25,620 nt of DNA from a virus (Duplodnaviria > Heunggongvirae > Uroviricota > Caudoviricetes). The translations under genes and the position numbers were made by a program. Numbering within the stretch: the stretch's first letter is position 1; each line of letters opens with the position of its first letter. The notes under the pieces were generated by a model, which was not told the DNA's origin, did no database searches, and worked only from the letters and a program-made list of their open reading frames with translations. The stretch lies in the IMG/VR virus record IMGVR_UViG_2713896798_000006; one strand, 5' to 3'. Shown piece after piece: positions 5,079 to 24,922 of this stretch.

Positions 5079-5136
5079 AAAAAGGGCGGCAGAGCAGCCA
5101 CGGAGTAAAACTGATACCGCCAAACGTCACCAGAAA
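5079..5136 (-). ncRNA. dicF: DicF small RNA (ftsZ-targeting sRNA of the dicB operon)
   Basis: Reverse complement of 5084..5136 reads TTTCTGGTGACGTTTGGCGGTATCAGTTTTACTCCGTGGCTGCTCTGCCGCCC followed by TTTTT, matching the ~53-nt DicF sequence as I recall it; lies about 175 nt upstream of dicB. Confidence 0.8.
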
Positions 5137-12693: not shown

Positions 12694-12908
12694 GGTAAAA
12701 ACGGTTTGCGGTAAAGCGAGAGTTAAGTAGAATTGCTGCGGGTGCTTGAGGCTGTCTGCCTCGGGCATGCCACCGTAAGGCAGACAGAGAAAAGCCCCAG
12801 TTAACATTACGCGTCCTGCAAGACGCCTAACATTAATCTGAGGCCAATTTCATGCTAGACATATGTAGGTTAGCCTCTTACGCGCCGAAAGGCAAGGAGA
12901 AGCAGGCT

Positions 12909-13064
12909 ATGAAGCAGCAAAAGGCGATGTTAATCGCCCTGATCGTCATCTGTATCACCGTCATAGTGACGGCACTGGTAACGAGGAAAGACCTCTGCGA
13001 GGTACGAATCCGAACCGGCCAGACGGAGGTCGCTGTCTTCACAGCTTACGAACCTGAGGAGTAA
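12909..13064 (+). CDS. hokD: Hok/Gef family type I toxin (51 aa)
   Basis: MKQQKAMLIALIVICITVIVTALVTRKDLCEVRIRTGQTEVAVFTAYEPEE is essentially K-12 HokD as I recall it; followed by a terminator; the track ORF extends upstream in frame from 12852. Confidence 0.85.
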   Translation: MKQQKAMLIALIVICITVIVTALVTRKDLCEVRIRTGQTEVAVFTAYEPEE

Positions 13065-13231: not shown

Positions 13232-13510
13232 ATGGCGCACGATACCAAATTATACAATTCTGATGATTCTGCCGTCTTTGCCAGCAGGCGCGGACGGTGT
13301 TTTCACGCATTCAAATCTGACTGGTACCAGCATCCCCCATGCACTGAAGAACAGGCCGAATGGCTCATTCAGTGTTACCGCAGGCGCGGATGCGAGGTTA
13401 AAAAAGCCCTTAGCCTCGACTACCGTCACTGGATAATCTCCGTCAGGCTCCCTTACTCCGAACGGCCACCGCGTCCGTCCCGCACATTCCAGCAACGGAT
13501 CTGGAGGTAA
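13232..13510 (+). CDS. Hypothetical small protein (92 aa) in the position of Qin rem
   Basis: Start MAHDTKLYNSDD chosen downstream of the hok terminator; Cys-rich; synteny with hokD-rem-ydfU. Confidence 0.45.
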   Translation: MAHDTKLYNSDDSAVFASRRGRCFHAFKSDWYQHPPCTEEQAEWLIQCYRRRGCEVKKALSLDYRHWIISVRLPYSERPPRPSRTFQQRIWR

Positions 13511-13511
13511 T

Positions 13512-14561
13512 GTGCGGGTATTACTTCGACCTGTTCTGGTACCGGAACTCGGTCTGGTTATCGTTAAGCCAGGCCGTGAATCAATGTCAGCATTCCATAA
13601 CGGCAGAATACTGGTGGAGCCGGAACCAAAAAGCATGCGAGCTCTGCCGTCCGGGGTTGTACCTGCCGTTCACCAGCCGCTGGCGGAAGATAAATCACTA
13701 CTGCCATTTTTCAGCGATGAGCGGGTGAGCCGTGCTGCGGGTGGCGCTGGTGCACTGTCTGACTGGTTATTACGTCACGTGAAATCCTGCCAGTGGCTAC
13801 ACGGTGATTATCATCACAGCGAAACCGTCATTCACCGTTACGGTACCGGCGCAATGGTGTTGTGCTGGCACTGCGACAACCAGCTGCGTGACCAGACATC
13901 CGAATCACTCGAGCAACTTGCTCATCAAAACCTGTCAGCATGGATGATTGACGTCATCGGTCACGCAATAAGCGGTACGCAGGAGCGTGAATTATCTCTG
14001 GCTGAATTATCCTGGTGGGCGGTCCGCAATCAGGTGGCGGACGCGCTACCGGAAGCGGTATTACGTCGTTCGCTGGGGTTGCGTGCGGAAAAAATCCGCT
14101 CCATGTACCGTGAAAGCGACATCGTACCGGGAGAGCAGACCGCCACCAGCATACTGAAACAGCGCACAAAAAATCTTGCGCCGCTGCCTCACGCCCACCA
14201 GCAACAGAACCCACCACAGGAAAAGACGGTGGTCAGCATTGCCGTTGATCCTGAGTCTCCGGAATCTTTCATGAAACGACCTAAACGTCGCCGCTGGGTT
14301 AACGAGAAATACACTCGCTGGGTGAAGACACAGCCGTGTGCGTGTTGTGGTAAGCCAGCCGACGATCCCCATCACCTGATTGGTCATGGTCAGGGCGGAA
14401 TGGGGACAAAATCTCACGATATTTTCACGCTACCGCTGTGTCGGGAGCATCACAACGAGCTTCATGCGGATCCGCTGGCGTTCGAAGAAAAGCATGGTTC
14501 TCAGGTTGATTTAATTTTTCGTTTTCTTGATCACGCCTTTGCAACTGGCGTGCTTGGGTAA
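13512..14561 (+). CDS. YdfU-like protein (349 aa) with C-terminal HNH/zinc-finger-like motif (DUF968-like)
   Basis: C-terminus CACCGKPADDPHHLIGHGQGGMGTKSHDIFTLPLCREHHNELH; size equals Qin YdfU; start is a GTG preceded by GGAGG. Confidence 0.6.
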   Translation: MRVLLRPVLVPELGLVIVKPGRESMSAFHNGRILVEPEPKSMRALPSGVVPAVHQPLAEDKSLLPFFSDERVSRAAGGAGALSDWLLRHVKSCQWLHGDYHHSETVIHRYGTGAMVLCWHCDNQLRDQTSESLEQLAHQNLSAWMIDVIGHAISGTQERELSLAELSWWAVRNQVADALPEAVLRRSLGLRAEKIRSMYRESDIVPGEQTATSILKQRTKNLAPLPHAHQQQNPPQEKTVVSIAVDPESPESFMKRPKRRRWVNEKYTRWVKTQPCACCGKPADDPHHLIGHGQGGMGTKSHDIFTLPLCREHHNELHADPLAFEEKHGSQVDLIFRFLDHAFATGVLG

Positions 14562-14573
14562 AAGAGGTGACTG

Positions 14574-14948
14574 ATGCTCATAGATTTGGTTTTACCTTAC
14601 CCGCCGACGGTGAACACTTACTGGCGACGCCGTGGCAGCACATATTTTATCTCGGAGGAGGGAAAGCGTTATCGCCGGGCTGTGGCGCTTATTGTTCGCC
14701 AGCAGCGGCTGAAATTAAGCCTGTCCGGAAGGCTGGCGATAAAGATTATTGCCGAGCCACCGGATAAGCGCCGCCGTGACTTGGACAATATTCTGAAAGC
14801 GCCGCTGGATGCGCTGACGCATGCGGGGTTGCTAATGGACGATGAGCAGTTTGATGAAATCAATATCGTTCGTGCTCAGCCAGTATCTGGTGGACGTCTG
14901 GGGGTGAAGATTTACCCCATAATGCTTGAAGGGCAGGTCAAAAAATGA
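14574..14948 (+). CDS. rusA: RusA-type Holliday junction resolvase
   Basis: PPTVNTYWRRRG...PDKRRRDLDNILKAPLDALTHAGLLMDDEQ parallels RusA (PPSNNRYY...[26 protein letters not shown].Q). Confidence 0.75.
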   Translation: MLIDLVLPYPPTVNTYWRRRGSTYFISEEGKRYRRAVALIVRQQRLKLSLSGRLAIKIIAEPPDKRRRDLDNILKAPLDALTHAGLLMDDEQFDEINIVRAQPVSGGRLGVKIYPIMLEGQVKK

Positions 14949-15766
14949 AACTGGAAGATTTACCGAAATACTACTCCCCAAAATCCCCCGGCCTGACTGA
15001 TGCATCGGCCTCAACGTCGAAAGATACGCTGAGTATCACTGATGTGATGGCTGCGCAGGGCATGACACAGAATTGGGCTGAGATGGGGTTTTCTGCGTTC
15101 CTTGGGAAAATGGGCATTAGTATGAATGACAGAGAGCGGGCAACAGAATTGCTGACAGAATATGCACTCAGTCGGTGTGATCGCGTGGCGGCGTTAAGAA
15201 AACTCCCGGCAGAAATAAAACCGGCAGTGATGCGTATTATGGCTTCGTATGCGTTTGAAGATTATGCCCGTAGCGCGGCGAGCAAAAAACAGTGCCCCTG
15301 TTGTCACGGAAAAAAATTTATTGAAAGCGAGGTTTTTACAAACAAGATCCAGTATCCGGATGGTAAGCCGCCAGTGTGGGCAAAGTGCACAAAAGGCGTG
15401 TATCCGTCTTACTGGGAGGAATGGAAAAAAGTCAGGGAGGTGGTAAAAGTTGCCTGTCCGGAGTGTGGAGGGAAGGGGGAGGTTTCCACCGCCTGTAAAG
15501 ATTGTCGTGGGCGCGGTGTTGCCATTCATCGTGAAGAGTCGGTAAAACGTGGTATGCCTGTTATCAGAGACTGCCAGCGTTGTGGTGGTCGTGGCTATGA
15601 AAGATTACCTTCAACGGAGGCATTTAATGCCATATGTAATGTAACCGATGCCATATCTCTTGATACATGGAAAAAAACAGTTAAACGTTTTTACGATACG
15701 CTGGTGGTGCAGTTTGATATTGAAGAAGCATGGGCAGAACAACAACTGAAAAAGGTGACCAGATAG
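14945..15766 (+). CDS. Putative late antiterminator (Q-like) with DnaJ-type CxxCxGxG zinc-finger repeats
   Basis: Three CxxCxGxG motifs (CPECGGKG, CKDCRGRG, CQRCGGRG) plus CPCCHGKK; located after rusA and before a promoter/terminator pair and the lysis genes. Confidence 0.5.
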   Translation: MKLEDLPKYYSPKSPGLTDASASTSKDTLSITDVMAAQGMTQNWAEMGFSAFLGKMGISMNDRERATELLTEYALSRCDRVAALRKLPAEIKPAVMRIMASYAFEDYARSAASKKQCPCCHGKKFIESEVFTNKIQYPDGKPPVWAKCTKGVYPSYWEEWKKVREVVKVACPECGGKGEVSTACKDCRGRGVAIHREESVKRGMPVIRDCQRCGGRGYERLPSTEAFNAICNVTDAISLDTWKKTVKRFYDTLVVQFDIEEAWAEQQLKKVTR

Positions 15767-15771
15767 CTTTG

Positions 15772-15799
15772 TTGATTTTTCCCGAATCTGTGGTAAATT
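15772..15799 (+). promoter_or_regulatory. Candidate late promoter (PR'-like)
   Basis: TTGATT (15772..15777), 16-bp spacer, extended -10 TGgTAAATT (15791..15799). Confidence 0.35.
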
Positions 15800-15846
15800 T
15801 GCCCTAACGATGGGCGTTTTATGCCTGACGTTAGAAGATTTTTTAC

Positions 15847-15870
15847 ACCCGTCGCTAGGCGGGTTTTTTT
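15847..15870 (+). terminator. Candidate tR'-like intrinsic terminator downstream of the Q-like gene
   Basis: Stem ACCCG/CGGGT with 8-nt loop followed by seven T. Confidence 0.5.
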
Positions 15871-15915
15871 ATGACTGAAATCACGCCAGTACAGTAAACG
15901 CGCTGGTGGTTGTGA

Positions 15916-16366
15916 ATACCGGTCTTTCAGCTTGCTGGCTTTTTCGACAAGAGTTATTGGTGTGTCACGTTAACCGGAAAAAGGAAAGTTTGAGAAACGC
16001 GATCTGGCACAGGCGGTTATTAATGCTGCCTACCTGGTGGCCTGTGCAGATGGTGAATGTGAGGCTTCCTAGAAAGCGAAGATCGAACAGGTACTGCGTA
16101 ATCAGCCTGCGCTGTCCGCGTTTACGTCAGAAATTAATGCGATTAGCGCAACCATTATCGGTCAGCTGGATACGAACTTTAAAATTGGTCGTCGTGCGGC
16201 GTTACGTGAGATCGAGGATGTGAAACACGATACGCGTGAAGCGGAAGATGTGCTGGATGTGGCGGTGGCCATTGCGGAGGCAGACGGCGAAATTGAGCCG
16301 GAAGAGCGCAAGGTGCTGGAAGAGATTGCCGGTGTTCTGGGTCTTCGTCTGGAGAATCACCAGTGA
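15916..16366 (+). pseudogene. TerB-like domain gene remnant (frameshifted, in-frame TAG, no start codon)
   Basis: One frame reads ...KRDLAQAVINAAYLVACADGECEAS*KAKIEQVLRN...DVLDVAVAIAEADGEIEPEERKVLEEIAGVLGLRLENHQ; upstream part (FQLAGFFDKS) is in another frame; TAG at 16070..16072. Confidence 0.45.
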
Positions 16367-16530
16367 CGGTAAAACTGCGCCTGGCTGTGGCTGCACTCCT
16401 GCTGTTTCTGGTGGTGATGGTGGATTTCACCAGCAGAATCATGTCGGTGCTGGCGGATGGGGTGCTGGTCTGCGGCATTGTGGTATTGCTGTGGCCGGTG
16501 ATAAAAAGAAACAGCCTGCATAATGCTTGA
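16363..16530 (+). CDS. Small two-helix membrane protein (55 aa) starting with GTG, overlapping the TerB-remnant stop
   Basis: Manual translation VTVKLRLAVAALLLFLVVMVDFTSRIMSVLADGVLVCGIVVLLWPVIKRNSLHNA; not in the track (under 60 aa). Confidence 0.3.
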   Translation: MTVKLRLAVAALLLFLVVMVDFTSRIMSVLADGVLVCGIVVLLWPVIKRNSLHNA

Positions 16531-16695
16531 TTTTTTTGTTTACTGTTTATTAAAAATACTACTGCATGGTGAATCCCCCTGTGCGGAGGGGCAATCAGCA
16601 ACCAGGTATATGTGATAATCGCGGATTCAGGTGCTGATACTGAATTCACCGGGAGGCACCCGGCACCATGCAAGAAAAAGAATGTGCATGCAAAC

Positions 16696-16723
16696 ATGCC
16701 CCTCTCCTGAGGGGCATTTTTAT
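16696..16723 (+). terminator. Rho-independent terminator (plus strand)
   Basis: 9-bp stem ATGCCCCTC/GAGGGGCAT, loop tcct, then ttttta. Confidence 0.55.
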
Positions 16724-16724
16724 G

Positions 16725-16752
16725 GGTAAAAAATGCCCGAATGGGTTCGGGC
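16725..16752 (-). terminator. Rho-independent terminator (minus strand), back to back with the plus-strand one
   Basis: Stem gcccgaa/ttcgggc with loop tggg; on the minus strand it is followed by the U-run complementary to ggtaaaaaat. Confidence 0.4.
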
Positions 16753-16848
16753 AATAGCATGAGATACTGATATTGTTGTGTTGTTATCGTGTGGATTTTA
16801 ACCAGGGTTTATCAGGCTGCGCAACTGCGTGGCCTTTTTTCATTTCTT

Positions 16849-16893
16849 GGGCTGTAGTCCCCGTGTGTCATTCAGGCTTCCGGACTACAGCCC
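16849..16893. repeat. 12-bp perfect inverted repeat with 21-nt spacer, about 45 bp upstream of the esterase gene
   Basis: GGGCTGTAGTCC (16849..16860) and GGACTACAGCCC (16882..16893). Confidence 0.5.
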
Positions 16894-16936
16894 ACTCCAT
16901 ATCTGATTTAATACACTATCCCGGCCGGGAGGAATA

Positions 16937-18787
16937 ATGACATTTAAACATTATGATGTTGTCAGGGCGGCGTCGCCGTCAGACCTTGCGGAAAAGCTGA
17001 CACACAAACTGAAAGAGGGCTGGCAGCCGTTTGGTAGTCCGGTGGCCATAACCCCTTATACCCTGATGCAGGCGATTACAGCAGAAGGTGATGTGGTGGT
17101 CAGTGGTGCAACTGAGCCGGAGTGGTACTACGTCATCGTACTGGCCGGGCAGTCCAATGCCATGGCTTACGGTGAAGGGCTTCCGCTGCCGGATTCATAC
17201 GATGCTCCGGATCCGCGCATTAAACAGCTGGCGCGCCGCAGTACAGTGACGCCGGGTGGGGCTGCCTGCAGATATAACGATATTATTCCGGCCGACCACT
17301 GCCTGCATGATGTGCAGGATATGAGTACGCTGAATCATCCGAAGGCAGACCTGAGCAAAGGGCAGTACGGCTGTGTCGGCCAGGGGTTACATATTGCCAA
17401 AAAACTGCTCCCGTATATCCCGAATAACGCGGGGATCCTGCTGGTACCATGCTGTCGTGGTGGTTCGGCATTTACCCAGGGCGCGGAGGGGACATTCAGT
17501 GCGGACACGGGGGCCAGCCAGGATTCGGCGCGCTGGGGTGTGGGTAAACCGTTATATCAGGACCTGATTGCGCGCACCAAAGCTGCATTACAGAAGAACC
17601 CGAAAAATGTGTTGCTGGCGGTGTGCTGGATGCAGGGAGAGTTTGACATGAGCGCCGCCACCCACGCACAGCAACCTGCGCTGTTTACAGCCATGCTGAC
17701 ACAGTTTCGTGCTGACCTCTCCGTGTTTAACGCGCAGTGCCATGGTGGCAGTGCTGCAGATGTGCCGTGGATTTGTGGTGACACGACGTATTACTGGAAA
17801 AATACATACGCTACCCAGTACGACACCGTGTACGGCGGGTATAAAAACAGGGAGAGTGAGGGCGTTTATTTTGTGCCCTTCATGACAGACGGTAACGGCG
17901 TCAATACCGCCACTAACGCGCCGGCAGAAGATCCGGATATTCCGGCATCAGGATATTACGGTGCGGCATCGAGAACGAATGGAAACCAGGTATCATCAAA
18001 CCGCCCGACACATTTCAGTTCATGGGCGCGCAGGAGCATTATTCCGGATCGTCTGGCAACCGCTATTCTGAACGCAGCCGGGCGCACCTCAGCCTTCATC
18101 AGTGGTAAGGCACCGGAAATCAAACCCTCGCCCGGCGGCAACACGCCATCGGGTCCGTCTGCAGATACGTCCGTTCGCACAATCTCCCTGCTGCCGGCAG
18201 CCGGAGAGGCTGCTGCGCAGGGCTGGAGCATTAAGGATGGCGGAATTCAGTTGTCAGATGGTGTATTTAAGATCACCAAGCAGAGCAATAAAACCTGGTC
18301 CCTGACGCATCCGGTGGATGACGCAATTACCCTGCTGACACAGGGCGGCAGACTGACCTGTAAGTTCCGCCTGTCAGGCGCACTGACCAACAATCAGTTC
18401 GGGCTGGGGATTTATCTGTATACGGATGCTCCCGTTCCTGATGGTGTGGCGATGACGGGTACCGGTAATCCGTTCCTGATGTCGTACTTCACTCAGACCA
18501 CTGACGGCAGAGTGAATCTGATGCATCACAGGAAAGCCGGAAACACGAAGCTGGGGGAGTTCGGCGATTACGGTAACGACTGGCAGACGCTGGAGCTGGT
18601 GTTCACCGCCGGCAGTGCCACGGTTACTCCGAAACTGAATGGAGTGGCTGGCCCGGCATTCCAGGTTATAAAAGACAGTCTGACACTGGGACTGAATGCG
18701 CTGACGCTGACGGATGTTACAAAAAATGCAGCGTATGGCGTTGAGATAGAAAGTCTGATGCTGGAGATAAATGCACCGGCAGCATAA
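16937..18787 (+). CDS. Prophage sialate O-acetylesterase-like protein (NanS-p type; SGNH/SASA hydrolase with N- and C-terminal extra domains)
   Basis: 616 aa; GQSNAMAYGEG motif early in the hydrolase domain; located between the Q-like gene and the holin, the usual site of nanS-p genes in EHEC lambdoid prophages. Confidence 0.6.
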   Translation: MTFKHYDVVRAASPSDLAEKLTHKLKEGWQPFGSPVAITPYTLMQAITAEGDVVVSGATEPEWYYVIVLAGQSNAMAYGEGLPLPDSYDAPDPRIKQLARRSTVTPGGAACRYNDIIPADHCLHDVQDMSTLNHPKADLSKGQYGCVGQGLHIAKKLLPYIPNNAGILLVPCCRGGSAFTQGAEGTFSADTGASQDSARWGVGKPLYQDLIARTKAALQKNPKNVLLAVCWMQGEFDMSAATHAQQPALFTAMLTQFRADLSVFNAQCHGGSAADVPWICGDTTYYWKNTYATQYDTVYGGYKNRESEGVYFVPFMTDGNGVNTATNAPAEDPDIPASGYYGAASRTNGNQVSSNRPTHFSSWARRSIIPDRLATAILNAAGRTSAFISGKAPEIKPSPGGNTPSGPSADTSVRTISLLPAAGEAAAQGWSIKDGGIQLSDGVFKITKQSNKTWSLTHPVDDAITLLTQGGRLTCKFRLSGALTNNQFGLGIYLYTDAPVPDGVAMTGTGNPFLMSYFTQTTDGRVNLMHHRKAGNTKLGEFGDYGNDWQTLELVFTAGSATVTPKLNGVAGPAFQVIKDSLTLGLNALTLTDVTKNAAYGVEIESLMLEINAPAA

Positions 18788-18999
18788 TAAAAAAAGCCAG
18801 CGCCCACTCTGAAGGACGCTGGCTAAAACGGGTAGATGTACTTCACATGATACTTATATTTGGCAGTACATTTTCTGACAGACAGTGACGGATGTTGTCA
18901 AGATATTGTGTCATTTATAACCTGAATCAGGGGTTGGTCGGAATGTTATCTGGCATTTTTAGCAGAGCCTGAATGCCATAATCACGGCTCCCGGCGTTG

Positions 19000-19034
19000 G
19001 CCGTCAGTGGGTGACACTGGCGGCTTTTTGTTTT
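19000..19034 (+). terminator. Intrinsic terminator immediately upstream of the holin gene
   Basis: Stem GCCGTCAGTG/CACTGGCGGC (one mismatch) with loop ggtga followed by tttttgtttt. Confidence 0.5.
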
Positions 19035-19079
19035 CCTTTACTTTCATTTTCTGTCGGCGGTGACGGAGACATACATCAG

Positions 19080-19286
19080 ATGGAAAAAATCACAACAGGT
19101 GTGTCATACACCACGTCAGCGGTAGGGACGGGATACTGGTTACTGCAACTGCTGGACAAAGTCTCTCCGTCCCAGTGGGTGGCAATAGGTGTGCTGGGGA
19201 GTCTGCTGTTTGGCCTGCTGACGTATCTGACTAACCTTTATTTCAAGATTAAAGAAGATAAGCGTAAGGTGGCGCGGGGAGAGTAG
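19080..19286 (+). CDS. Holin, phage 21 S-type pinholin
   Basis: [68 protein letters not shown] closely parallels S21 as I recall it. Confidence 0.8.
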
Positions 19287-19351
19287 TCGATGAATAAACA
19301 ATACGAACTGGTTGTAAAATGGTAAGCGTCAACGGAGCACCGTATTGACGC

Positions 19352-20965
19352 TTATTTATTGGTGAGTACTACGTTCCATGGCAGGAGTTCGTCAACTCGG
19401 TTGGAAGGCCATTCCGGCAGTACGCTCAGGATATGGCGCAGATACGCTTCCGGATCGATACCGTTCAGACGGCAGGTGCCGATCAGCCCGTACAACAGTG
19501 CTCCACGCTCGCCGCCGTGATCGCTGCCAAAGAACATAAAGTTTTTCTTTCCGAGACAGACTGCACGAAGCGCTCTTTCCGCAGCATTATTATCCGCCTC
19601 CGCCAGACCGTCATCACTGTAATAACAGAGGGCATCCCACTGATTCAGTACATAGCTGAACGCTTCGCCCAGTCTGGATTTTTTCGACAGCGTACCATTC
19701 TTCTCCACCATCCATTCATGCAGCGACGTCAGTAACACTTTGCTTCGCTGCTGCCTGACGGCAAGACGCTCTGACTCCGGTAATCCCCGTATTTCATCCT
19801 CGATGGCGTACAGTTCACTGATTCGCTTCAGGGCTTCTTCTGCCGTCGCACTTTTGCTGCTGATGTATACATCGTGGATTTTTCGCCGGGCATGGGCCCA
19901 GCACGCAACTTCTGTCAGTGCACCACCTTCACGTTCTGCACTGAACAACCTGTCGTAACCTGTGAACGCATCCGCCTGCAGGATACCCCGGAAGGGGCGG
20001 AGGTGTTGCTCCGGGTGTTTCCCCTGCCGGTTCGGCGAGTACGCGAACCAGACCGCTGGAGGAGATGACGAACCCACATTGCGATCATCCCGGACATACG
20101 TCCAGATACGCCCTGTTTTCGCCTTTTTCTGACCCGGTGCCAGTACCTTTACCGGTGTGTCATCAGTGTGAACCTTGCGGGTGTTCATTACATAACGGTA
20201 CAGGGCATCATTCACCGGTGTCATTAACTGGCAGCACGCGTCAACCCAGTTGGAGAGTAAGGCCCGGCTCAGTTCGACACCCTGGCGGGCAAAGATTTCA
20301 CTCTGACGATACAGTGGCAGATGTTCGCAGTATTTTCCCGTTAACACGCGGGCAAGTAATCCGGGGCCCGCGATACCACGCTCTATCGGGCGGGACGGCG
20401 CCGGTGCTTCAACAATACAGTCACATTTTGTACAGGCTTTTTTTACCCGTTCTGTGCGGATCACTTTCAGGGCACTGCTCACCAGTTCCAGCTGTTCAGC
20501 GCTGACTTCCCCCAGATAATCCAGCTCACCGCCACACTCCGGGCAACAGCTTTCTTCTGGCTCCAGGCGGTGTATTTCACGGGGAAGGTGTGCCGGTAAC
20601 GGACGACGATGGCGCGACTGTCGCAACTGGCGGGGAACCTGAGGATCGTCTTCCCGCCCACTGTAACGATCGCTGTCCTGTTCACGTTGTTTCAGCAGAG
20701 CCTCAGCCAGTTCAACTTCACGACGCAGTTTTTCAGAACGGGTACCGAACAGCATCCGGCGCAGTTTTTCTATCTGAGCCCGCAGATGTTCTATTTCCCG
20801 TTCATCTTCTTCGATCTTTTCTTCGGCACGTGTCAGTGCAGAGCGCAGGAAGGCTTCCGTCTCTTCAACCAGACTCAGTTGCTGGTCTTTCTGACGGAGG
20901 GCTTCAGCCTGCTCAGAGAGCAACCTTTCCAGCTCTGCGATGCGAATGAGGTATTTCTGACTCAT
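19352..20965 (-). CDS. IS66-family transposase (TnpC, 537 aa)
   Basis: N-terminal coiled-coil/leucine-zipper region, Cys-rich zinc-binding segment (CPECGG...CTKCDC) and length typical of IS66 TnpC. Confidence 0.85.
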   Translation of the reverse strand: MSQKYLIRIAELERLLSEQAEALRQKDQQLSLVEETEAFLRSALTRAEEKIEEDEREIEHLRAQIEKLRRMLFGTRSEKLRREVELAEALLKQREQDSDRYSGREDDPQVPRQLRQSRHRRPLPAHLPREIHRLEPEESCCPECGGELDYLGEVSAEQLELVSSALKVIRTERVKKACTKCDCIVEAPAPSRPIERGIAGPGLLARVLTGKYCEHLPLYRQSEIFARQGVELSRALLSNWVDACCQLMTPVNDALYRYVMNTRKVHTDDTPVKVLAPGQKKAKTGRIWTYVRDDRNVGSSSPPAVWFAYSPNRQGKHPEQHLRPFRGILQADAFTGYDRLFSAEREGGALTEVACWAHARRKIHDVYISSKSATAEEALKRISELYAIEDEIRGLPESERLAVRQQRSKVLLTSLHEWMVEKNGTLSKKSRLGEAFSYVLNQWDALCYYSDDGLAEADNNAAERALRAVCLGKKNFMFFGSDHGGERGALLYGLIGTCRLNGIDPEAYLRHILSVLPEWPSNRVDELLPWNVVLTNK

Positions 20966-20995
20966 GACCGTTTTTATAATGCGGTCAGGAGTTTT

Positions 20996-21346
20996 TTACA
21001 ACATTGTCAGTGAGTTACGGCTGGATGTTTTTGGCTGACGCCAGTCCAGCTTATCGAGGAGCATTGCCAGTTGCGAGCGGGTAATGGATACCTTGCCGTC
21101 ACGTACCGCAGGCCAGATAAACTGGCCTTCCTCCAGGCGTTTGGTGAACAGGCACAGACCATCAGCATCAGCCCAAAGAATTTTGACGGTGTCACCCCGT
21201 CGGCCACGGAAGATAAACAGGTGACCGGAGAAGGGATTATCATTCAGCACATGTTGTACCTGTTCTCCCAGTCCGTTGAAGGATTTACGCATATCGGTAA
21301 CGCCGGCAACGAGCCAGATACGGGTACCTGATGGGAGTGAGATCAT
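20996..21346 (-). CDS. IS66-family accessory protein TnpB (116 aa)
   Basis: MISLPSGTRIWLVAGVTDMRKSFNGL... typical IS66 Orf2; overlaps tnpA stop. Confidence 0.8.
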   Translation of the reverse strand: MISLPSGTRIWLVAGVTDMRKSFNGLGEQVQHVLNDNPFSGHLFIFRGRRGDTVKILWADADGLCLFTKRLEEGQFIWPAVRDGKVSITRSQLAMLLDKLDWRQPKTSSRNSLTML

Positions 21347-21768
21347 CTTCCCCTCCCGGTCAGTTCACGGATCAACACTGTGAGCAGCTCTGGCGATGGA
21401 TTTTCCAGCGTCATGTTACCGTGACGGAATTCCACCTTGCAGGAACTGGCACTGACTCTGGTCTGAGTGGAAGTGGATAAAGACGGCGCAATGGCCGCCA
21501 CAGGTTCTTTCTGCTCATCCGGCGTTATTTCTACAGGTAATAATTCAACGCCAGTGTCAGAAGAGGTCGTTACCGGAAGACGCCGCGAAACACGCCCTTC
21601 GTTCTGCCAGAGCCTGAGCCATTTGAAAATAACATTATCATTGACGCCATTTTCACGTGCAATCTGTGCAACACAAGCTCCAGGTTGTGATGCCAGTTCC
21701 ACCATACGAAGTTTGAATTCATTCGAATAGTTTTTACGAGGTTCTTTTCGCCAGTCCTGTAATTCCAT
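21343..21768 (-). CDS. IS66-family accessory protein TnpA (141 aa)
   Basis: HTH-containing first ORF of the IS66 operon, immediately upstream of and overlapping tnpB. Confidence 0.75.
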   Translation of the reverse strand: MELQDWRKEPRKNYSNEFKLRMVELASQPGACVAQIARENGVNDNVIFKWLRLWQNEGRVSRRLPVTTSSDTGVELLPVEITPDEQKEPVAAIAPSLSTSTQTRVSASSCKVEFRHGNMTLENPSPELLTVLIRELTGRGR

Positions 21769-22081
21769 ACTTAGATGTCCGTCTATATCAGATGGGCGTC
21801 TAAGTTACCAATTCTCGTCTGATGGCTACATACGGCGGTCAGTTTACGCTTACGTAAAATGAATATTTCTAACTGAAAAAACGTTCCATGAGGTGAGAAA
21901 AGGTCACAGGCAATCAATAACAGGACGTGATGAAAGACCCTTGCATTTGTGCGCTTTCTCTTTAGATAGCAGCAGATACTGAAAATCTGAGTTGTCGGGG
22001 AGTCAGGGATACAGCTGTGCAAGAGTTGGTCATTGTGATTCCATTGAAATCCTGTATGCCATGAAGGGCAGGATTTTATGG

Positions 22082-22396
22082 CTACCTGAGCTTTGGTGAT
22101 AGTAAGTTGAAAATTCGCATTTTTTGCTGACATGCGTAACGAGAATCCCATAAGCAGGGAGGACTTAATTCTTCATTAACCCATGCGTTGATATTATGTT
22201 TCAGCCGTTGAAGCATCAGCGGTGTTAATGTTGTGGTAATAATATCCAGCGTTTTATGTGAGATCTTACCGTAAGGGTCTGCAAGAATGCTGCTTGTTGC
22301 TTCGTTATTATCTGCCATCAGAAGAAGTAACTCTGATTTAACGTTTTCTGTCATTAGTTGTAAAAATCTTCTGCGCAAACTTTCTTTACTGTTCAT
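22082..22396 (-). CDS. Hypothetical 104-aa protein on the opposite strand, in an AT-rich segment between holin and endolysin
   Basis: ORF in the track; upstream on the minus strand is a perfect TATAAT; size and position resemble Qin ydfR (103 aa) but sequence identity not verified. Confidence 0.4.
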   Translation of the reverse strand: MNSKESLRRRFLQLMTENVKSELLLLMADNNEATSSILADPYGKISHKTLDIITTTLTPLMLQRLKHNINAWVNEELSPPCLWDSRYACQQKMRIFNLLSPKLR

Positions 22397-22513
22397 TTAT
22401 ATGGCTTCATTTGTTGTAATCTGCTGCGTCTCAAGGGATATGTTTATGAGAGCGACCATGAGTGTTGGATTATATACCTAACATATCAAGGGATTAGAAA
22501 TCGATAAATCCCC

Positions 22514-23047
22514 ATGAACGAAAAAATAAAATACGGCCTGTCGGCTGCCGTTCTGGCGCTGATTGGTGCAGGTGCTTCTGCGCCTGAAATCCTCGACCAG
22601 TTTCTGGATGAAAAGGAAGGTAACCACACCACGGCATACCGTGATGGTGCGGGGATCTGGACCATCTGCCGTGGTGCCATTCTGGTGGATGGTAAGCCTG
22701 TTATTCCTGGCATGAAGCTGTCAAAGGAAAAATGCGACCGGGTTAATGCCATCGAACGTGACAAGGCGCTGGCATGGGTGGAGAAAAACATCAAAGTGCC
22801 GCTGACCGAACCCCAGAAAGCGGGGATCGCGTCATTCTGTCCGTATAACATTGGCCCCGGTAAGTGTTTCCCGTCGACGTTTTATAAACGAATTAATGCA
22901 GGTGATCGAAAAGGTGCCTGCGAAGCGATTCGCTGGTGGATTAAGGACGGTGGCAGAGACTGCCGTATCCGCTCAAATAATTGCTACGGTCAGGTATCCC
23001 GGCGAGATCAGGAAAGTGCGCTGGCGTGCTGGGGTATCGACAGATAA
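22514..23047 (+). CDS. SAR endolysin (T4-lysozyme-like, GH24) with N-terminal signal-anchor-release domain
   Basis: Weakly hydrophobic Gly/Ala-rich N-terminus YGLSAAVLALIGAGASAP; catalytic E-x8-D-x5-T (EGNHTTAYRDGAGIWT); 177 aa. Confidence 0.8.
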   Translation: MNEKIKYGLSAAVLALIGAGASAPEILDQFLDEKEGNHTTAYRDGAGIWTICRGAILVDGKPVIPGMKLSKEKCDRVNAIERDKALAWVEKNIKVPLTEPQKAGIASFCPYNIGPGKCFPSTFYKRINAGDRKGACEAIRWWIKDGGRDCRIRSNNCYGQVSRRDQESALACWGIDR

Positions 23048-23141
23048 GCAGAATATTTTGCTTAAAAATGACGTTGGCCAACGCGGGCAGATAACACGAA
23101 ATCCTGCGAACTGGCAAAACCCAAGTGAATAAAAGTAAAAA

Positions 23142-23172
23142 CCCCGTTTGTTGGTTGCAAACGGGGTTTTAT
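23142..23172. terminator. Hairpin with U/A-rich flanks on both sides (possible bidirectional terminator) between endolysin and Rz
   Basis: 9-bp stem CCCCGTTTG/CAAACGGGG, 7-nt loop, followed by ttttatgtttat and preceded by aaaagtaaaaa. Confidence 0.5.
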
Positions 23173-23339
23173 GTTTATGGCAGTAAGCTATGGGAGGCTG
23201 CCTTGATTGATTTTAGCAAACTGATTAGGGAGTTGCGACTCATGATTAGTCAATTACCAAACTGGAAATTTTTGCTGGTCTGGAGCATCCCTTTTTTATG
23301 GGTAGTATCCCAGTGAATTGTGGCAATTAAGGGGTAGCT

Positions 23340-23471
23340 ATGTCAGACAAACTCATAATGCTGGCGAAGATCCTCTGTGTAATCGTCGGCATTTCATTTT
23401 CACTAATGCTGGTTGCTCTTTTTCTTTCCATGGGCTGGATGATGTTGTCTTCGTCGGGGCTGCTGGGGTGA
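23340..23471 (+). CDS. Small membrane peptide (43 aa), [43 protein letters not shown]
   Basis: AAGGGG Shine-Dalgarno 5 nt upstream of ATG; manual translation; stop overlaps the candidate GTG start of Rz. Confidence 0.3.
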
Positions 23472-23482
23472 GCATAAACCGA

Positions 23483-23941
23483 ATGCTTTCCGCGTTTACC
23501 GTTATTCTGCTGGTGGTCTGTGGTGCGCTTAGTCTGGGGCTGAATCATTACCGCGATAACGCCATCACCTACAAAGCGCAGCGCGATAAAAAAGCCAGTG
23601 AGCTGGATCTGGCAAACGCAACCATTACTGATATGCAGGTGCGCCAGCGCGATGTTGCTGCGCTCGATGCAAAATACTCGAGGGAATTAGCCGATGCGAG
23701 AGCTGAAAATGAAACTCTGCGTGCTGATGTTGCCGCTGGTCGTAAGCGCCTGCGGATCAACGCCACCTGCCCCGGTACCGTGCGTGAAGCCACCGGCACC
23801 TCCGGCGTGGGCAATGATGCCGCCGTCGAACTCTCTCCGGTTGCTGGACGAAACGTTCTCGGTATCAGAGACGGAATCATCAGCGACCAGGCAGCATTGA
23901 GAATGCTTCAGGAATATATCCGCACTCAGTGTATTAACTAG
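23483..23941 (+). CDS. Rz-like i-spanin (inner-membrane spanin subunit)
   Basis: N-terminal transmembrane helix then coiled-coil-like charged region; contains an embedded +1-frame lipoprotein ORF; alternative GTG start at 23468. Confidence 0.7.
23709..23900 (+). CDS. Rz1-like o-spanin (outer-membrane lipoprotein embedded in Rz in the +1 frame)
   Basis: [15 protein letters not shown] lipobox followed by Pro-rich mature region [16 protein letters not shown]; fully embedded in the Rz gene. Confidence 0.7.
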
Positions 23942-23964
23942 TATTTTTGTTATTCGGAGAATGC

Positions 23965-24189
23965 ATGAAGAAATTATTGGTAACCGTAAAGCCTTTTCAG
24001 GGAACAATTCCGTTCCGTATTTTGCAGCGTGGTCGTGTTCTTGTTGAAGGTTCGTTCAGTGGTAAATGTACGCAATTACACTCCCGGACCTTTCAGGTGA
24101 ATGCCACGAATGAAGAGCTAACCGTTGAGTGTACGATGAATGCCGCTAAATGCCGCATGGTATCCGCTGCATTACAGCCAGTGTGTTGA
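23965..24189 (+). CDS. Hypothetical small protein (74 aa)
   Basis: GGAGA Shine-Dalgarno before ATG at 23965; MKKLLVTVKPFQ...; no family recognised (not a CspA-type cold shock protein). Confidence 0.4.
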   Translation: MKKLLVTVKPFQGTIPFRILQRGRVLVEGSFSGKCTQLHSRTFQVNATNEELTVECTMNAAKCRMVSAALQPVC

Positions 24190-24922
24190 GCGACCTTATT
24201 ATTCATGCGCGGTATTGTCGCCGTATTCCTGCATTAACAGAGACCGCAGCCCGACCGGGAGAATCCTCTGCGCGAGTGTGCGGGGATAATCAAAAACGAT
24301 ACACACCGGGGTTTACCGCGTTAACGGAGCGCGGCGTTGTCCCCTCATGGTCGCTGGTCCGGTGCGATGGTGGAAGAAGCCGGATGTTTATCACTATTAA
24401 TTGATAACACAGAAATGGATTCATTGATTTTCAGCACGTTTTTGTATTCGTATTATTGAACATCTGTTTATTTTACTTTTAACATATTGATAATAAAAAG
24501 AGCTGTAAATCTTTAGATGAGTCGATTTTGTCCGGGGAAGTTCAAATGGATTTTATGCTGACGGTTTCTGGTGTGGTTATCCTGTCCATTGCTTATACTG
24601 CAGATAAATATGGCTGCCATTTGTTATCACGTATTGGCGCTTATTGCTCGTTGATGCTGATTTTCTCGTCGCTTTTTTTTGAGTAAGTTATATTAATTAT
24701 AACAAATAATTTTCTGTGTTTTTTCAGGCTATCCCGTCAGACGGGAAGCCTGTACTGCCGGGGGACGAATGGAAAACTGATGTGTCCGGTAACTGTGTGT
24801 TCTGTGAACACCATGTTACTTAATTATGTAATTCATACCCGAACGCTCTGTTGACAGCCTTCTTCTGCAGGCTTCAATAACCCACGCTGAAAAGTTACCG
24901 GAACCTTGGTAATGACTCCAAC

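What the first reader, a model, noticed from the sequence alone, without database searches (positions are those of the whole stretch)
21854..22513. AT-rich 660-bp segment with a reverse-oriented 104-aa ORF between holin and endolysin
Holin and endolysin genes usually abut or overlap. Here, even after removing the IS, about 690 bp separate them, and the segment is markedly AT-rich with a minus-strand ORF preceded by a perfect TATAAT. It may be the ydfR-like (DUF1327) gene that Qin carries between essQ and rrrQ, or an unrelated moron; I cannot tell without a search.
Basis: partly seen in the sequence, partly recalled or inferred. Interest (0 to 1): 0.55.

Follow-up and report, generated by a model that had tools for sequence, protein, structure and literature searches.

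The report
Orphan prophage gene beside dead YdfR-like gene
The AT-rich gap between the holin and endolysin genes holds a real, conserved but uncharacterised small prophage gene on the opposite strand, next to the decayed remains of a YdfR-type gene; this is an ordinary accessory ("moron"-type) insertion, not a new kind of system.

Summary
With the IS66-family element (19322-21853, 8-bp duplication GTAAAATG) removed, 687 bp separate the class II holin from the lysozyme. The segment has 39.4% G+C against about 50-53% in the flanks. It carries a 104-aa minus-strand ORF (22082-22396) with a TATAAT 72 nt upstream.

The ORF is not YdfR/DUF1327 (no Pfam match). It belongs to PHROG 1853 (unknown function), a narrow family found in E. 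coli and Salmonella, almost all about 104-106 aa. It is a real gene: dN/dS is 0.14-0.35 against homologs whose synonymous sites are saturated. EDL933 annotates the identical protein as "unknown protein encoded within prophage CP-933O".

AlphaFold predicts a soluble five-helix bundle (pLDDT 84). No fold, defence-database, Rfam or literature lead emerged.

In related prophages the gene always lies opposite to the lysis genes. It is usually convergent with a variable "partner" gene, which in Stx2 phage 86 starts with a DUF1327 domain. Here that partner is dead: only its first 10 codons (19290-19319) and a decayed C-terminal remnant (about 21903-22034) remain.

Most likely this is an independently transcribed moron whose product acts as a cytoplasmic binding protein. 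Its function is unknown. Interest is low to moderate.

The parts
19080..19286 (+). Class II (phage 21 S-type) holin gene. It forms the left border of the gap.
   Evidence: PF04971 at E 4.5e-32. Corresponds to 'class II holin family protein' WP_000411804.1 at L001 5767-5973.
19290..19321 (+). First 10 codons (MNKQYELVVK) of a DUF1327/YdfR-type gene, followed by a stop that is also present in IS-free genomes. This is the 5' stub of the dead partner gene.
   Evidence: 8 of 10 residues identical to the N-terminus of phage 86 gp05, which carries DUF1327. blastn alignment to phage 86 at 87% identity runs from the holin through window 21865.
19322..21853 (-). IS66-family insertion sequence (tnpA, tnpB, tnpC on the minus strand) with an 8-bp target-site duplication, GTAAAATG, at 19314-19321 and 21854-21861. 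It is not part of the feature but interrupts it.
   Evidence: Pfam DDE_Tnp_IS66, TnpB_IS66 and HTH_Tnp_1. Boundaries and duplication come from comparison with the IS-free O26 locus. This junction is found in none of 5426 complete E. coli genomes.
21903..22034 (+). Decayed remnant, with in-frame stops, of the conserved C-terminal domain of the partner gene (PHROG 1085 type).
   Evidence: tblastn gives 39% identity over 41 aa to LC567842 protein 290, with two stops. A profile HMM of six intact partner C-domains scores 8.1 bits, E 0.0011 over six frames, above all 300 shuffles (maximum 4.4). Strand and position are as expected from intact loci. The evidence is modest.
22082..22396 (-). Intact 104-aa gene of the PHROG 1853 family: a soluble, basic (pI 9.3, 12.1 kDa) predicted five-helix protein of unknown function.
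   Evidence: phrog_1853 at E 3.5e-47. Homologs at 31-100% identity, nearly all 104-106 aa. dN/dS 0.14-0.35. AF2 pLDDT 83.8 with five helices. No TM segment (maximum Kyte-Doolittle 0.66). Identical to EDL933 'unknown protein encoded within prophage CP-933O'. PGAP calls only the last 90 codons.
22397..22513 (.). 117-bp divergent spacer between the small gene and the lysozyme gene. It holds candidate sigma-70 elements for the small gene (TATAAT 22474-22469; TGaTATGTT 22488-22480, minus strand) and a GGGATT-N11-AATCCC hairpin (22490-22510) directly before the lysozyme ATG.
   Evidence: Direct reading plus my own hexamer scan. The -35 elements are weak and the standard scan found no promoter. The RNA fold of the spacer is not unusual (z = -0.9). 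No function has been shown.
22514..23047 (+). Lysozyme (endolysin) gene with an N-terminal Gly/Ala-rich hydrophobic stretch. It forms the right border of the gap.
   Evidence: PF00959 at E 3.2e-24. Annotated 'lysozyme' WP_001003112.1 in the O26 and O103 genomes. The signal-anchor-release (SAR) nature is inferred from the N-terminal sequence and established knowledge of phage 21-type endolysins.

Best explanation
The AT-rich gap is what remains of a two-gene accessory cassette that many E. coli and Salmonella lambdoid prophages carry in or just before the lysis cassette.

One member is a forward 'partner' gene. It has a variable N-terminus (DUF1327/YdfR-type in Stx2 phage 86, coiled-coil-like in others) fused to a conserved C-terminal domain of about 95 aa. 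The other member is a convergent, reverse-oriented gene of about 105 aa (PHROG 1853).

In this window the partner is a pseudogene: a 10-codon stub plus a decayed C-terminal remnant. The reverse gene is intact and under purifying selection.

The reverse gene behaves as a moron. It is foreign in base composition and points against the Q-dependent late transcript. It must therefore be transcribed from its own promoter in the 117-bp spacer it shares with the lysozyme gene, chiefly when the late operon is silent (lysogeny or early infection).

Its product is a small soluble basic five-helix protein with no membrane segment, catalytic motif or DNA-binding signature. It most likely works by binding another protein in the cytoplasm. 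The target may be a host or incoming-phage factor, or proteins carrying the partner's C-domain.

Shown: gene reality, family membership, context, and partner decay (the last only with modest support). Inferred: the promoter, the timing of expression and a binding-type mechanism.
For: Gene reality:
- dN/dS is 0.14-0.35 with saturated dS against seven homologous loci.
- Length is conserved at 104-106 aa down to 33% identity, with invariant P41, G43, L57, W72, E76, Q91, K92 and F96.
- Canonical Shine-Dalgarno sequences precede the same start in other lineages.

Family:
- phrog_1853 at E 3.5e-47.
- About 70 clusters, named sources only E. coli and Salmonella, none with a function.

Context:
- Always on the strand opposite to the lysis genes.
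- The 5' end is divergent from the lysozyme or holin gene.
- The 3' end is convergent or overlapping with a partner of 268, 260, 222, 213 or 184-185 aa. In some loci the partner is a decayed 65-aa remnant, and in L016 it is absent.

Partner:
- Partners share a C-domain. Phage 86 gp05 starts with DUF1327.
- Remnants of the partner in the window are shown.

Autonomy of the small gene:
- It is intact where the partner is dead or absent (window, L013, L016).
- A 31-36% identical branch lies in an ICE-like island with no partner and no lysis genes.

Moron features:
- 39% G+C against 50-53% in the flanks.
- Holin and lysozyme overlap directly in L005.
- TATAAT and TGnTATGTT lie upstream.

Protein:
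- pLDDT 83.8, five helices.
- No TM segment, pI 9.3.

Spread:
- 631 of 5426 complete E. coli genomes carry the segment, 623 records at >=99% identity.
Against: No expression data exist for this gene.

The promoter is weak on paper. The -35 elements match at 2-3 of 6 positions, and the standard scan found no promoter in the spacer. The TATAAT is not conserved in the L013, L016 or phage-86 lineages.

No terminator follows the ORF. The Shine-Dalgarno sequence in this lineage is poor.

The persistent position next to lysis genes at 33-50% identity could reflect a lysis-related role rather than a lysogen-expressed one.

The remnant assignment at 21903-22034 rests on a weak score of 8.1 bits.
Confidence: 0.6

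Rival explanations
1. The small protein is the antidote, immunity protein or regulator of the partner protein's conserved C-terminal domain. The two form a functional pair, and in this window it survives as an orphan, perhaps protecting the lysogen against related phages that express the partner.
For: Tight convergent linkage, often with 4-33 nt of 3' overlap, occurs in E. coli, Salmonella and metagenomic lineages at 33-100% identity. The conserved part of the partner is exactly the domain adjacent to the small gene, whereas the partner N-termini are swapped. In Salmonella L022 the pair persists in a defective prophage with no holin or lysozyme gene called at that locus.
Against: The small gene is intact without any partner in several lineages and in an ICE-like island. 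Convergent orientation is atypical for toxin-antitoxin or immunity pairs. L007 combines a phage-86/LC567842-type partner with a window-type small protein, so the two recombine independently. There are no PADLOC hits for either protein.
Confidence: 0.15
2. The unit acts mainly at the RNA or transcription level. Leftward transcription from the spacer opposes read-through from the late promoter and makes RNA antisense to the partner and holin genes. This would damp leaky lysis-gene expression in lysogens, with the encoded protein secondary.
For: The orientation is invariably opposite to the lysis genes in prophage contexts. No terminator lies between the ORF and the holin, so the transcript would run antisense into the holin gene in IS-free genomes. 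In intact pairs the 3' ends overlap.
Against: Strong purifying selection on the amino-acid sequence with saturated synonymous sites shows that the protein itself is selected. The ICE-borne relatives have no lysis genes to oppose. In L005, L010 and L011 the transcript would be antisense to the partner, not to the holin.
Confidence: 0.1
3. The protein is a cytoplasmic lysis-cassette accessory factor, for example a lysis-timing modulator acting on the cytoplasmic tail of the holin or on the endolysin before export.
For: It sits next to holin or endolysin genes in every prophage locus examined, with two different holin families (PF04971 and PF05106).
Against: It is on the strand opposite to the late operon, so it is unlikely to be co-expressed with the lysis genes. 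It has no TM segment or signal peptide. It occurs in an ICE-like island and in a Salmonella prophage remnant with no holin or lysozyme gene called next to it. Prophages such as Sakai Sp9 have a lysis cassette without any reverse gene of this kind annotated between S and R.
Confidence: 0.08
4. The ORF is the YdfR/DUF1327 gene, as in Qin, or else a spurious ORF in AT-rich junk.
For: DUF1327-type genes do sit between S and R in related prophages: phage 86 gp05, and 114-aa forward ORFs between S and R in Sakai Sp9 and Sp17 whose family I did not test. Long ORFs can arise by chance in AT-poor frames.
Against: No PF07041 match for the ORF or any of 13 relatives. The ORF is on the opposite strand from the DUF1327 gene in phage 86. 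dN/dS of 0.14-0.35 and conserved length rule out a spurious ORF.
Confidence: 0.02

Closest known systems
Stx2-converting phage 86 gp06 (YP_794053.1; orf6) and LC567842 protein BCI98957.1
   Same: Same family (49-53% identity), same 104-aa length, same reverse orientation, and same position immediately upstream of and divergent from the lysozyme gene.
   Different: In those phages the partner gene is intact (268 or 213 aa) and fills the space up to the holin. Their upstream leader carries a conserved hairpin (CGCCAGTG...CACTGGCG) that the window lineage lacks. No function is known for them either.
PHROG 1853 (phage protein family, unknown function)
   Same: The window protein matches the profile at E 3.5e-47 over residues 1-102.
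   Different: The profile has 159 positions and the match covers positions 57-158. The upstream frame in the window is closed by stop codons, and nearly all homologs found are 104-106 aa. The extra N-terminal profile positions probably come from over-extended gene calls (inference).
YdfR / DUF1327 (PF07041), the gene between essQ and rrrQ in the Qin prophage
   Same: It occupies the same slot between holin and endolysin. A 10-codon stub of such a gene survives at 19290-19319.
   Different: It is on a different strand, belongs to a different family, and shows no sequence relation to the 104-aa ORF. DUF1327 itself has no known function; one paper mentions it only in passing.
Lambda-type morons such as bor (my own knowledge: Juhala et al. 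2000; Hendrix et al. 2000)
   Same: An extra gene inserted in the late region, with deviating base composition, reverse orientation (like bor next to Rz) and promoter-like sequences of its own. It is absent from otherwise similar prophages.
   Different: Bor is a characterised outer-membrane lipoprotein expressed in lysogens. This product is cytoplasmic, its expression is untested, and no flanking terminator was found.

Membership tests
YdfR / DUF1327 (PF07041) | Significant match of the protein to the PF07041 profile. | tested here: not met
   No Pfam family at E<=1 for the 104-aa ORF. None at E<=10 for 13 family members. The positive control, phage 86 gp05, gives E 3.7e-45.
YdfR / DUF1327 (PF07041) | Gene co-oriented with holin and endolysin, lying between them. 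| tested here: not met
   The ORF is on the minus strand while the holin and lysozyme genes are on the plus strand. Only a 10-codon plus-strand stub at 19290-19319 fits.
PHROG 1853 | Significant match to the family profile HMM. | tested here: met
   E 3.5e-47, 161 bits, residues 1-102 against profile positions 57-158.
PHROG 1853 | Protein-coding conservation across members (purifying selection, conserved length). | tested here: met
   dN/dS 0.14-0.35. Length 104-106 aa down to 33% identity, with 8 invariant columns among 13 sequences.
Moron (autonomous extra gene in a prophage) | The gene is present between two genes that are adjacent in related phages. | tested here: met
   Holin and lysozyme overlap directly in L005. 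In L016 only the small gene lies between holin and lysozyme.
Moron (autonomous extra gene in a prophage) | Base composition differs from the neighbouring phage genes. | tested here: met
   ORF 38.4% and segment 39.4% G+C, against holin 50.2% and lysozyme 52.6%.
Moron (autonomous extra gene in a prophage) | Own promoter and terminator flanking the gene. | tested here: inconclusive
   TATAAT (22474-22469) and TGaTATGTT (22488-22480) are present, but the -35 elements are weak. The standard scan finds no promoter and no minus-strand terminator. The promoter position is not conserved between lineages.
Moron (autonomous extra gene in a prophage) | Expression from the repressed prophage. | not testable with these tools
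   No transcriptome data are available here, and literature searches found nothing on this gene.
Known anti-phage defence systems (PADLOC-DB v2) | Match to any defence-protein model. | tested here: not met
   No hit at E<=1 for the ORF, two distant family members, four partner proteins, or the ICE-context neighbour.
Toxin-antitoxin or immunity pair with the partner gene | Obligate co-occurrence and co-transcription of the two genes. | tested here: not met
   The genes are convergent, not co-transcribed. The small gene occurs without the partner in the window, L013, L016 and L025-L027.
Membrane-acting lysis regulators (antiholin, spanin, releasin-type) | Transmembrane segment, signal peptide or lipobox. 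| tested here: not met
   Maximum 19-residue Kyte-Doolittle mean is 0.66, and GRAVY is -0.33. The model is an all-helical soluble bundle.

The most novel reading that the evidence does not exclude
The 104-aa protein and the partner's conserved C-terminal domain form a previously unrecognised two-gene module carried by lambdoid prophages. The small protein alone is also carried by an ICE-like island. The small protein would neutralise the partner, or block related superinfecting phages that depend on it, making this a new exclusion or addiction-type system embedded in the lysis cassette. The window would then hold an orphan 'immunity' copy kept by selection.
Probability: 0.12. Interest if true: 0.6.

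Novelty: new member of a known kind. Interest (0 to 1): 0.3.

Why it matters
The practical value is mostly for annotation.

- It explains why holin and endolysin are 687 bp apart in a lysis cassette present in about 12% of complete E. coli genomes, including O157, O26, O103, O111 and O145 STEC.
- It shows that the PGAP 90-aa gene call is probably 14 codons too short.
- It identifies the rest of the spacer as a pseudogene remnant.

Biologically, it flags a narrowly distributed protein family under purifying selection, with no fold or functional relatives, that rides on prophages and on an ICE-like island. Families like this are where new lysogenic-conversion, exclusion or anti-defence functions tend to be found. 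Nothing here shows such a function.

Tried and rejected
Database searches on the ORF that found nothing:
- Pfam, NCBIfam and PADLOC scans.
- Pfam scan of 13 family members at E<=10, which gave only scattered single-member noise.
- PDB sequence-profile search, which hit only a designed helical protein at E 0.0016.

Structure searches with the AF2 model, none informative:
- Foldseek against PDB, best E 1.4.
- Foldseek against BFVD viral structures, best E 0.77.
- The afdb50 library was unavailable.

RNA searches:
- Rfam at gathering score over the whole window found nothing in the segment.
- Rfam at E<=1 on 21780-22560 gave only a sub-threshold AfaR hit at the IS edge.
- The RNA fold of the spacer is not unusual, z = -0.9.

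Searches for related loci:
- megablast against 50,697 phage records found no match.
- Two viral-contig scans with distant homologs found nothing.

Literature searches, none of which gave anything relevant: holin/endolysin/opposite orientation/Stx, ydfR+holin, moron terms, WP_000138558 and DUF1327.

Attempt to find a Sakai locus tag: I read Sp17 and Sp9. Both have a forward 114-aa ORF between S and R and no reverse gene, so no Sakai tag was obtained. EDL933 annotates the protein in CP-933O.

ORFs rejected as spurious:
- The 122-aa minus ORF at 21783-22151 runs into the IS end and has no family hit.
- The 64-aa plus ORF at 22287-22481 is antisense to the conserved gene.

Full report
**What is there**

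The window is the late region of a lambdoid STEC-type prophage. Positions 13314-19321 and 21854-24907 are 99.9-100% identical to a prophage of E. coli O26:H11 11368. The annotated order there is SASA esterase, class II holin, a reverse hypothetical protein, lysozyme, Rz and terminase. O103:H2 12009 has the same arrangement.

In the window, an IS66-family element interrupts this arrangement. Its tnpA, tnpB and tnpC genes have Pfam hits. It occupies 19322-21853 and is flanked by the 8-bp duplication GTAAAATG. That junction occurs in none of 5426 complete E. coli genomes.

Without the IS, 687 bp separate the holin stop (19286) from the lysozyme ATG (22514).

The finding's segment has 39.4% G+C against 50-53% for the holin, lysozyme and IS. 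The quoted 104-aa ORF is at 22082-22396 on the minus strand. A perfect TATAAT lies at 22474-22469, 72 nt upstream.

**What the ORF is**

It is not YdfR/DUF1327. There is no Pfam, NCBIfam or PADLOC hit, and 13 relatives give no consistent Pfam hit even at E<=10. It matches PHROG 1853, 'unknown function', at E 3.5e-47.

The family is small.
- An exhaustive HMMER scan of 1.84 billion representatives gave 15 hits.
- A profile search of 5.8 billion proteins gave 70 clusters. All are unnamed or 'hypothetical', and the only named sources are E. coli and Salmonella enterica.
- The identical 104-aa protein is on record as 'unknown protein encoded within prophage CP-933O' of EDL933.
- The 660-bp segment is present in 631 of 5426 complete E. 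coli genomes, with 623 records at >=99% identity. These include O157:H7, O26, O103, O111 and O145.
- No deposited phage genome carries the segment at the DNA level. Only four Stx2 phage records encode a relative, at about 53% identity.

The ORF is a real gene.
- Homologs down to 33% identity keep a length of 104-106 aa and share invariant residues P41, G43, L57, W72, E76, Q91, K92 and F96.
- Pairwise Nei-Gojobori dN/dS against seven loci is 0.14-0.35, with synonymous sites near or beyond saturation.
- Other lineages have good Shine-Dalgarno sequences before the same start. The 104-aa start is therefore more likely than the 90-aa start that PGAP uses.

**Context in relatives**

In every prophage locus examined, the gene lies on the strand opposite to the lysis genes. 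Its 5' end faces the next lysis gene: the lysozyme in most loci, the holin in L005, L010 and L011.

Its 3' end is convergent with a co-oriented 'partner' gene and often overlaps it. The partner varies widely:

| Locus | Partner |
|---|---|
| Stx2 phage 86 (gp05) | 268 aa |
| LC567842 | 213 aa |
| L007, L008 | 222 aa |
| Salmonella L022 | 260 aa |
| L005, L010, L011 | 184-185 aa |
| L013 | decayed 65-aa remnant |
| L016 | none |

Partners share a conserved C-terminal domain with motifs GRCMGxLQ(V/L)AAEIE and DNPPFK...PG..YLKGR. This corresponds to PHROG 1085/26186. Their N-termini differ, and that of phage 86 gp05 is DUF1327 (E 3.7e-45).

More distant family members (31-36% identity) sit in an ICE-like island with TraG_N and an integrase, next to an L31 paralog. 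That island has no lysis genes and no partner.

The small gene is therefore the constant, autonomous element, and the partner is dispensable. L007 pairs a phage-86/LC567842-type partner with a window-type small protein, so the two recombine independently.

**The rest of the gap**

Directly after the holin stop, the plus strand reads MNKQYELVVK and then a stop. This is 8 of 10 residues identical to the start of phage 86 gp05. DNA similarity to phage 86 (87%) extends from the holin to window 21865.

Further right, 21903-22034 translates, with two stops, to a sequence 39% identical over 41 aa to the partner C-domain. A profile of six intact C-domains scores it at 8.1 bits (E 0.0011), above all 300 shuffles.

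So the non-coding part of the gap is most likely a gutted YdfR-type partner gene. The remnant evidence is modest.

**How it probably works**

Because it points against the Q-dependent late transcript, the gene must use its own promoter in the 117-bp spacer. Two candidates are the TATAAT at 22474-22469 and an extended -10-like TGaTATGTT at 22488-22480.

The case for either promoter is weak.
- Both have poor -35 elements.
- The standard scan reports neither.
- Their positions are not conserved between lineages.
- No terminator follows the ORF.

Foreign composition, reverse orientation and presence or absence between otherwise adjacent genes fit the classical moron pattern. Expression would then occur mainly when late transcription is off.

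The product has no enzymatic, membrane or DNA-binding signature. A cytoplasmic protein-binding role is the default inference, not a demonstrated one.

The rivals I considered are:
- an antidote or regulator of the partner domain, now orphaned;
- an antisense or transcription-interference role;
- a lysis-timing factor.

Each is weakened by the partner-less and ICE-borne copies, by the strong selection on the protein, or by the strand.

**Comparison and verdict**

The closest known entities are phage 86 gp06 and PHROG 1853 (members, function unknown), DUF1327/YdfR (same slot, different gene) and lambda-type morons such as bor (same logic, different product).

No literature on this gene or on DUF1327 function was found.

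This is an already catalogued but uncharacterised accessory gene next to a pseudogene remnant. It is ordinary for a mosaic prophage late region and of modest interest as an orphan family under selection.

Noticed in passing
window 19322-21853, with duplications at 19314-19321 and 21854-21861: An IS66-family element (2532 bp, termini GTAAGCG..., 8-bp duplication GTAAAATG) is inserted 35 bp after the holin stop. This insertion site is found in none of 5426 complete E. coli genomes. Its tnpA-tnpB-tnpC genes are on the same strand as the small ORF with no terminator between them, so transcription from the small gene's promoter could read into the transposase genes.
   Followed up: partly
L003 4395-4425, L004 4398-4425, L005 3925-3955, L010 1338-1361, L022 about 3425-3455 (upstream of the small-gene homologs): A conserved 8-bp-stem hairpin, CGCCAGTG-loop(4-8 nt)-CACTGGCG followed by T-rich sequence, lies about 50-90 nt upstream of the small gene in the phage-86, Salmonella and metagenomic lineages. 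The stem is invariant and the loop varies. A second, covarying stem-loop may follow it. There is no Rfam match. It is absent from the window lineage, which has the TATAAT there instead. It could be a leader or attenuator structure.
   Followed up: partly
L025 980-1297, L026 3501-3800, L027 980-1279: Family members at 31-36% identity lie in an ICE-like island (TraG_N, tyrosine integrase, next to a ribosomal L31 paralog) rather than in a prophage. In L025 the gene is preceded on the same strand by a 217-aa protein with a hydrophobic N-terminal region.
   Followed up: partly
window 22490-22510: An inverted repeat, GGGATT-N11-AATCCC, ends 3 nt before the lysozyme ATG, and there is no obvious Shine-Dalgarno sequence at normal spacing. 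An AAGGGA lies 20 nt upstream and could be brought closer by the hairpin. Related loci keep a similar pairing (AGGATT...AATCC).
   Followed up: no
window 23138-23170 and 23340-23471: A strong bidirectional terminator-like hairpin (13-14 bp stem, AAAACCCCGTTTG...CAAACGGGGTTTT) sits inside the late operon between the lysozyme and Rz genes. It is followed by a 43-aa hydrophobic ORF (annotated hypothetical in O26 and O103) just before the Rz gene.
   Followed up: no
window 5084-5135 (-), 12740-12914 (+), 16538-16727 (+), 16728-16789 (-): Rfam matches above gathering score elsewhere in the window: DicF, sok (hok/sok antitoxin RNA), STnc100, and the anti-GcvB sRNA AgvB directly abutting STnc100 on the opposite strand.
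   Followed up: no
L001 6229-6501, equivalent to window 22082-22354: RefSeq/PGAP annotates the gene as 90 aa (WP_000138558.1), starting at Met15. Conservation of the N-terminal 14 residues and of the 104-106-aa length across divergent homologs suggests the longer start is correct.
   Followed up: yes
L016-L018, about 4913-5704 in L016: In the prophage lineage carrying P0018, a 263-aa Enterotoxin_a/Scabin-like ADP-ribosyltransferase gene lies just upstream of the holin.
   Followed up: no
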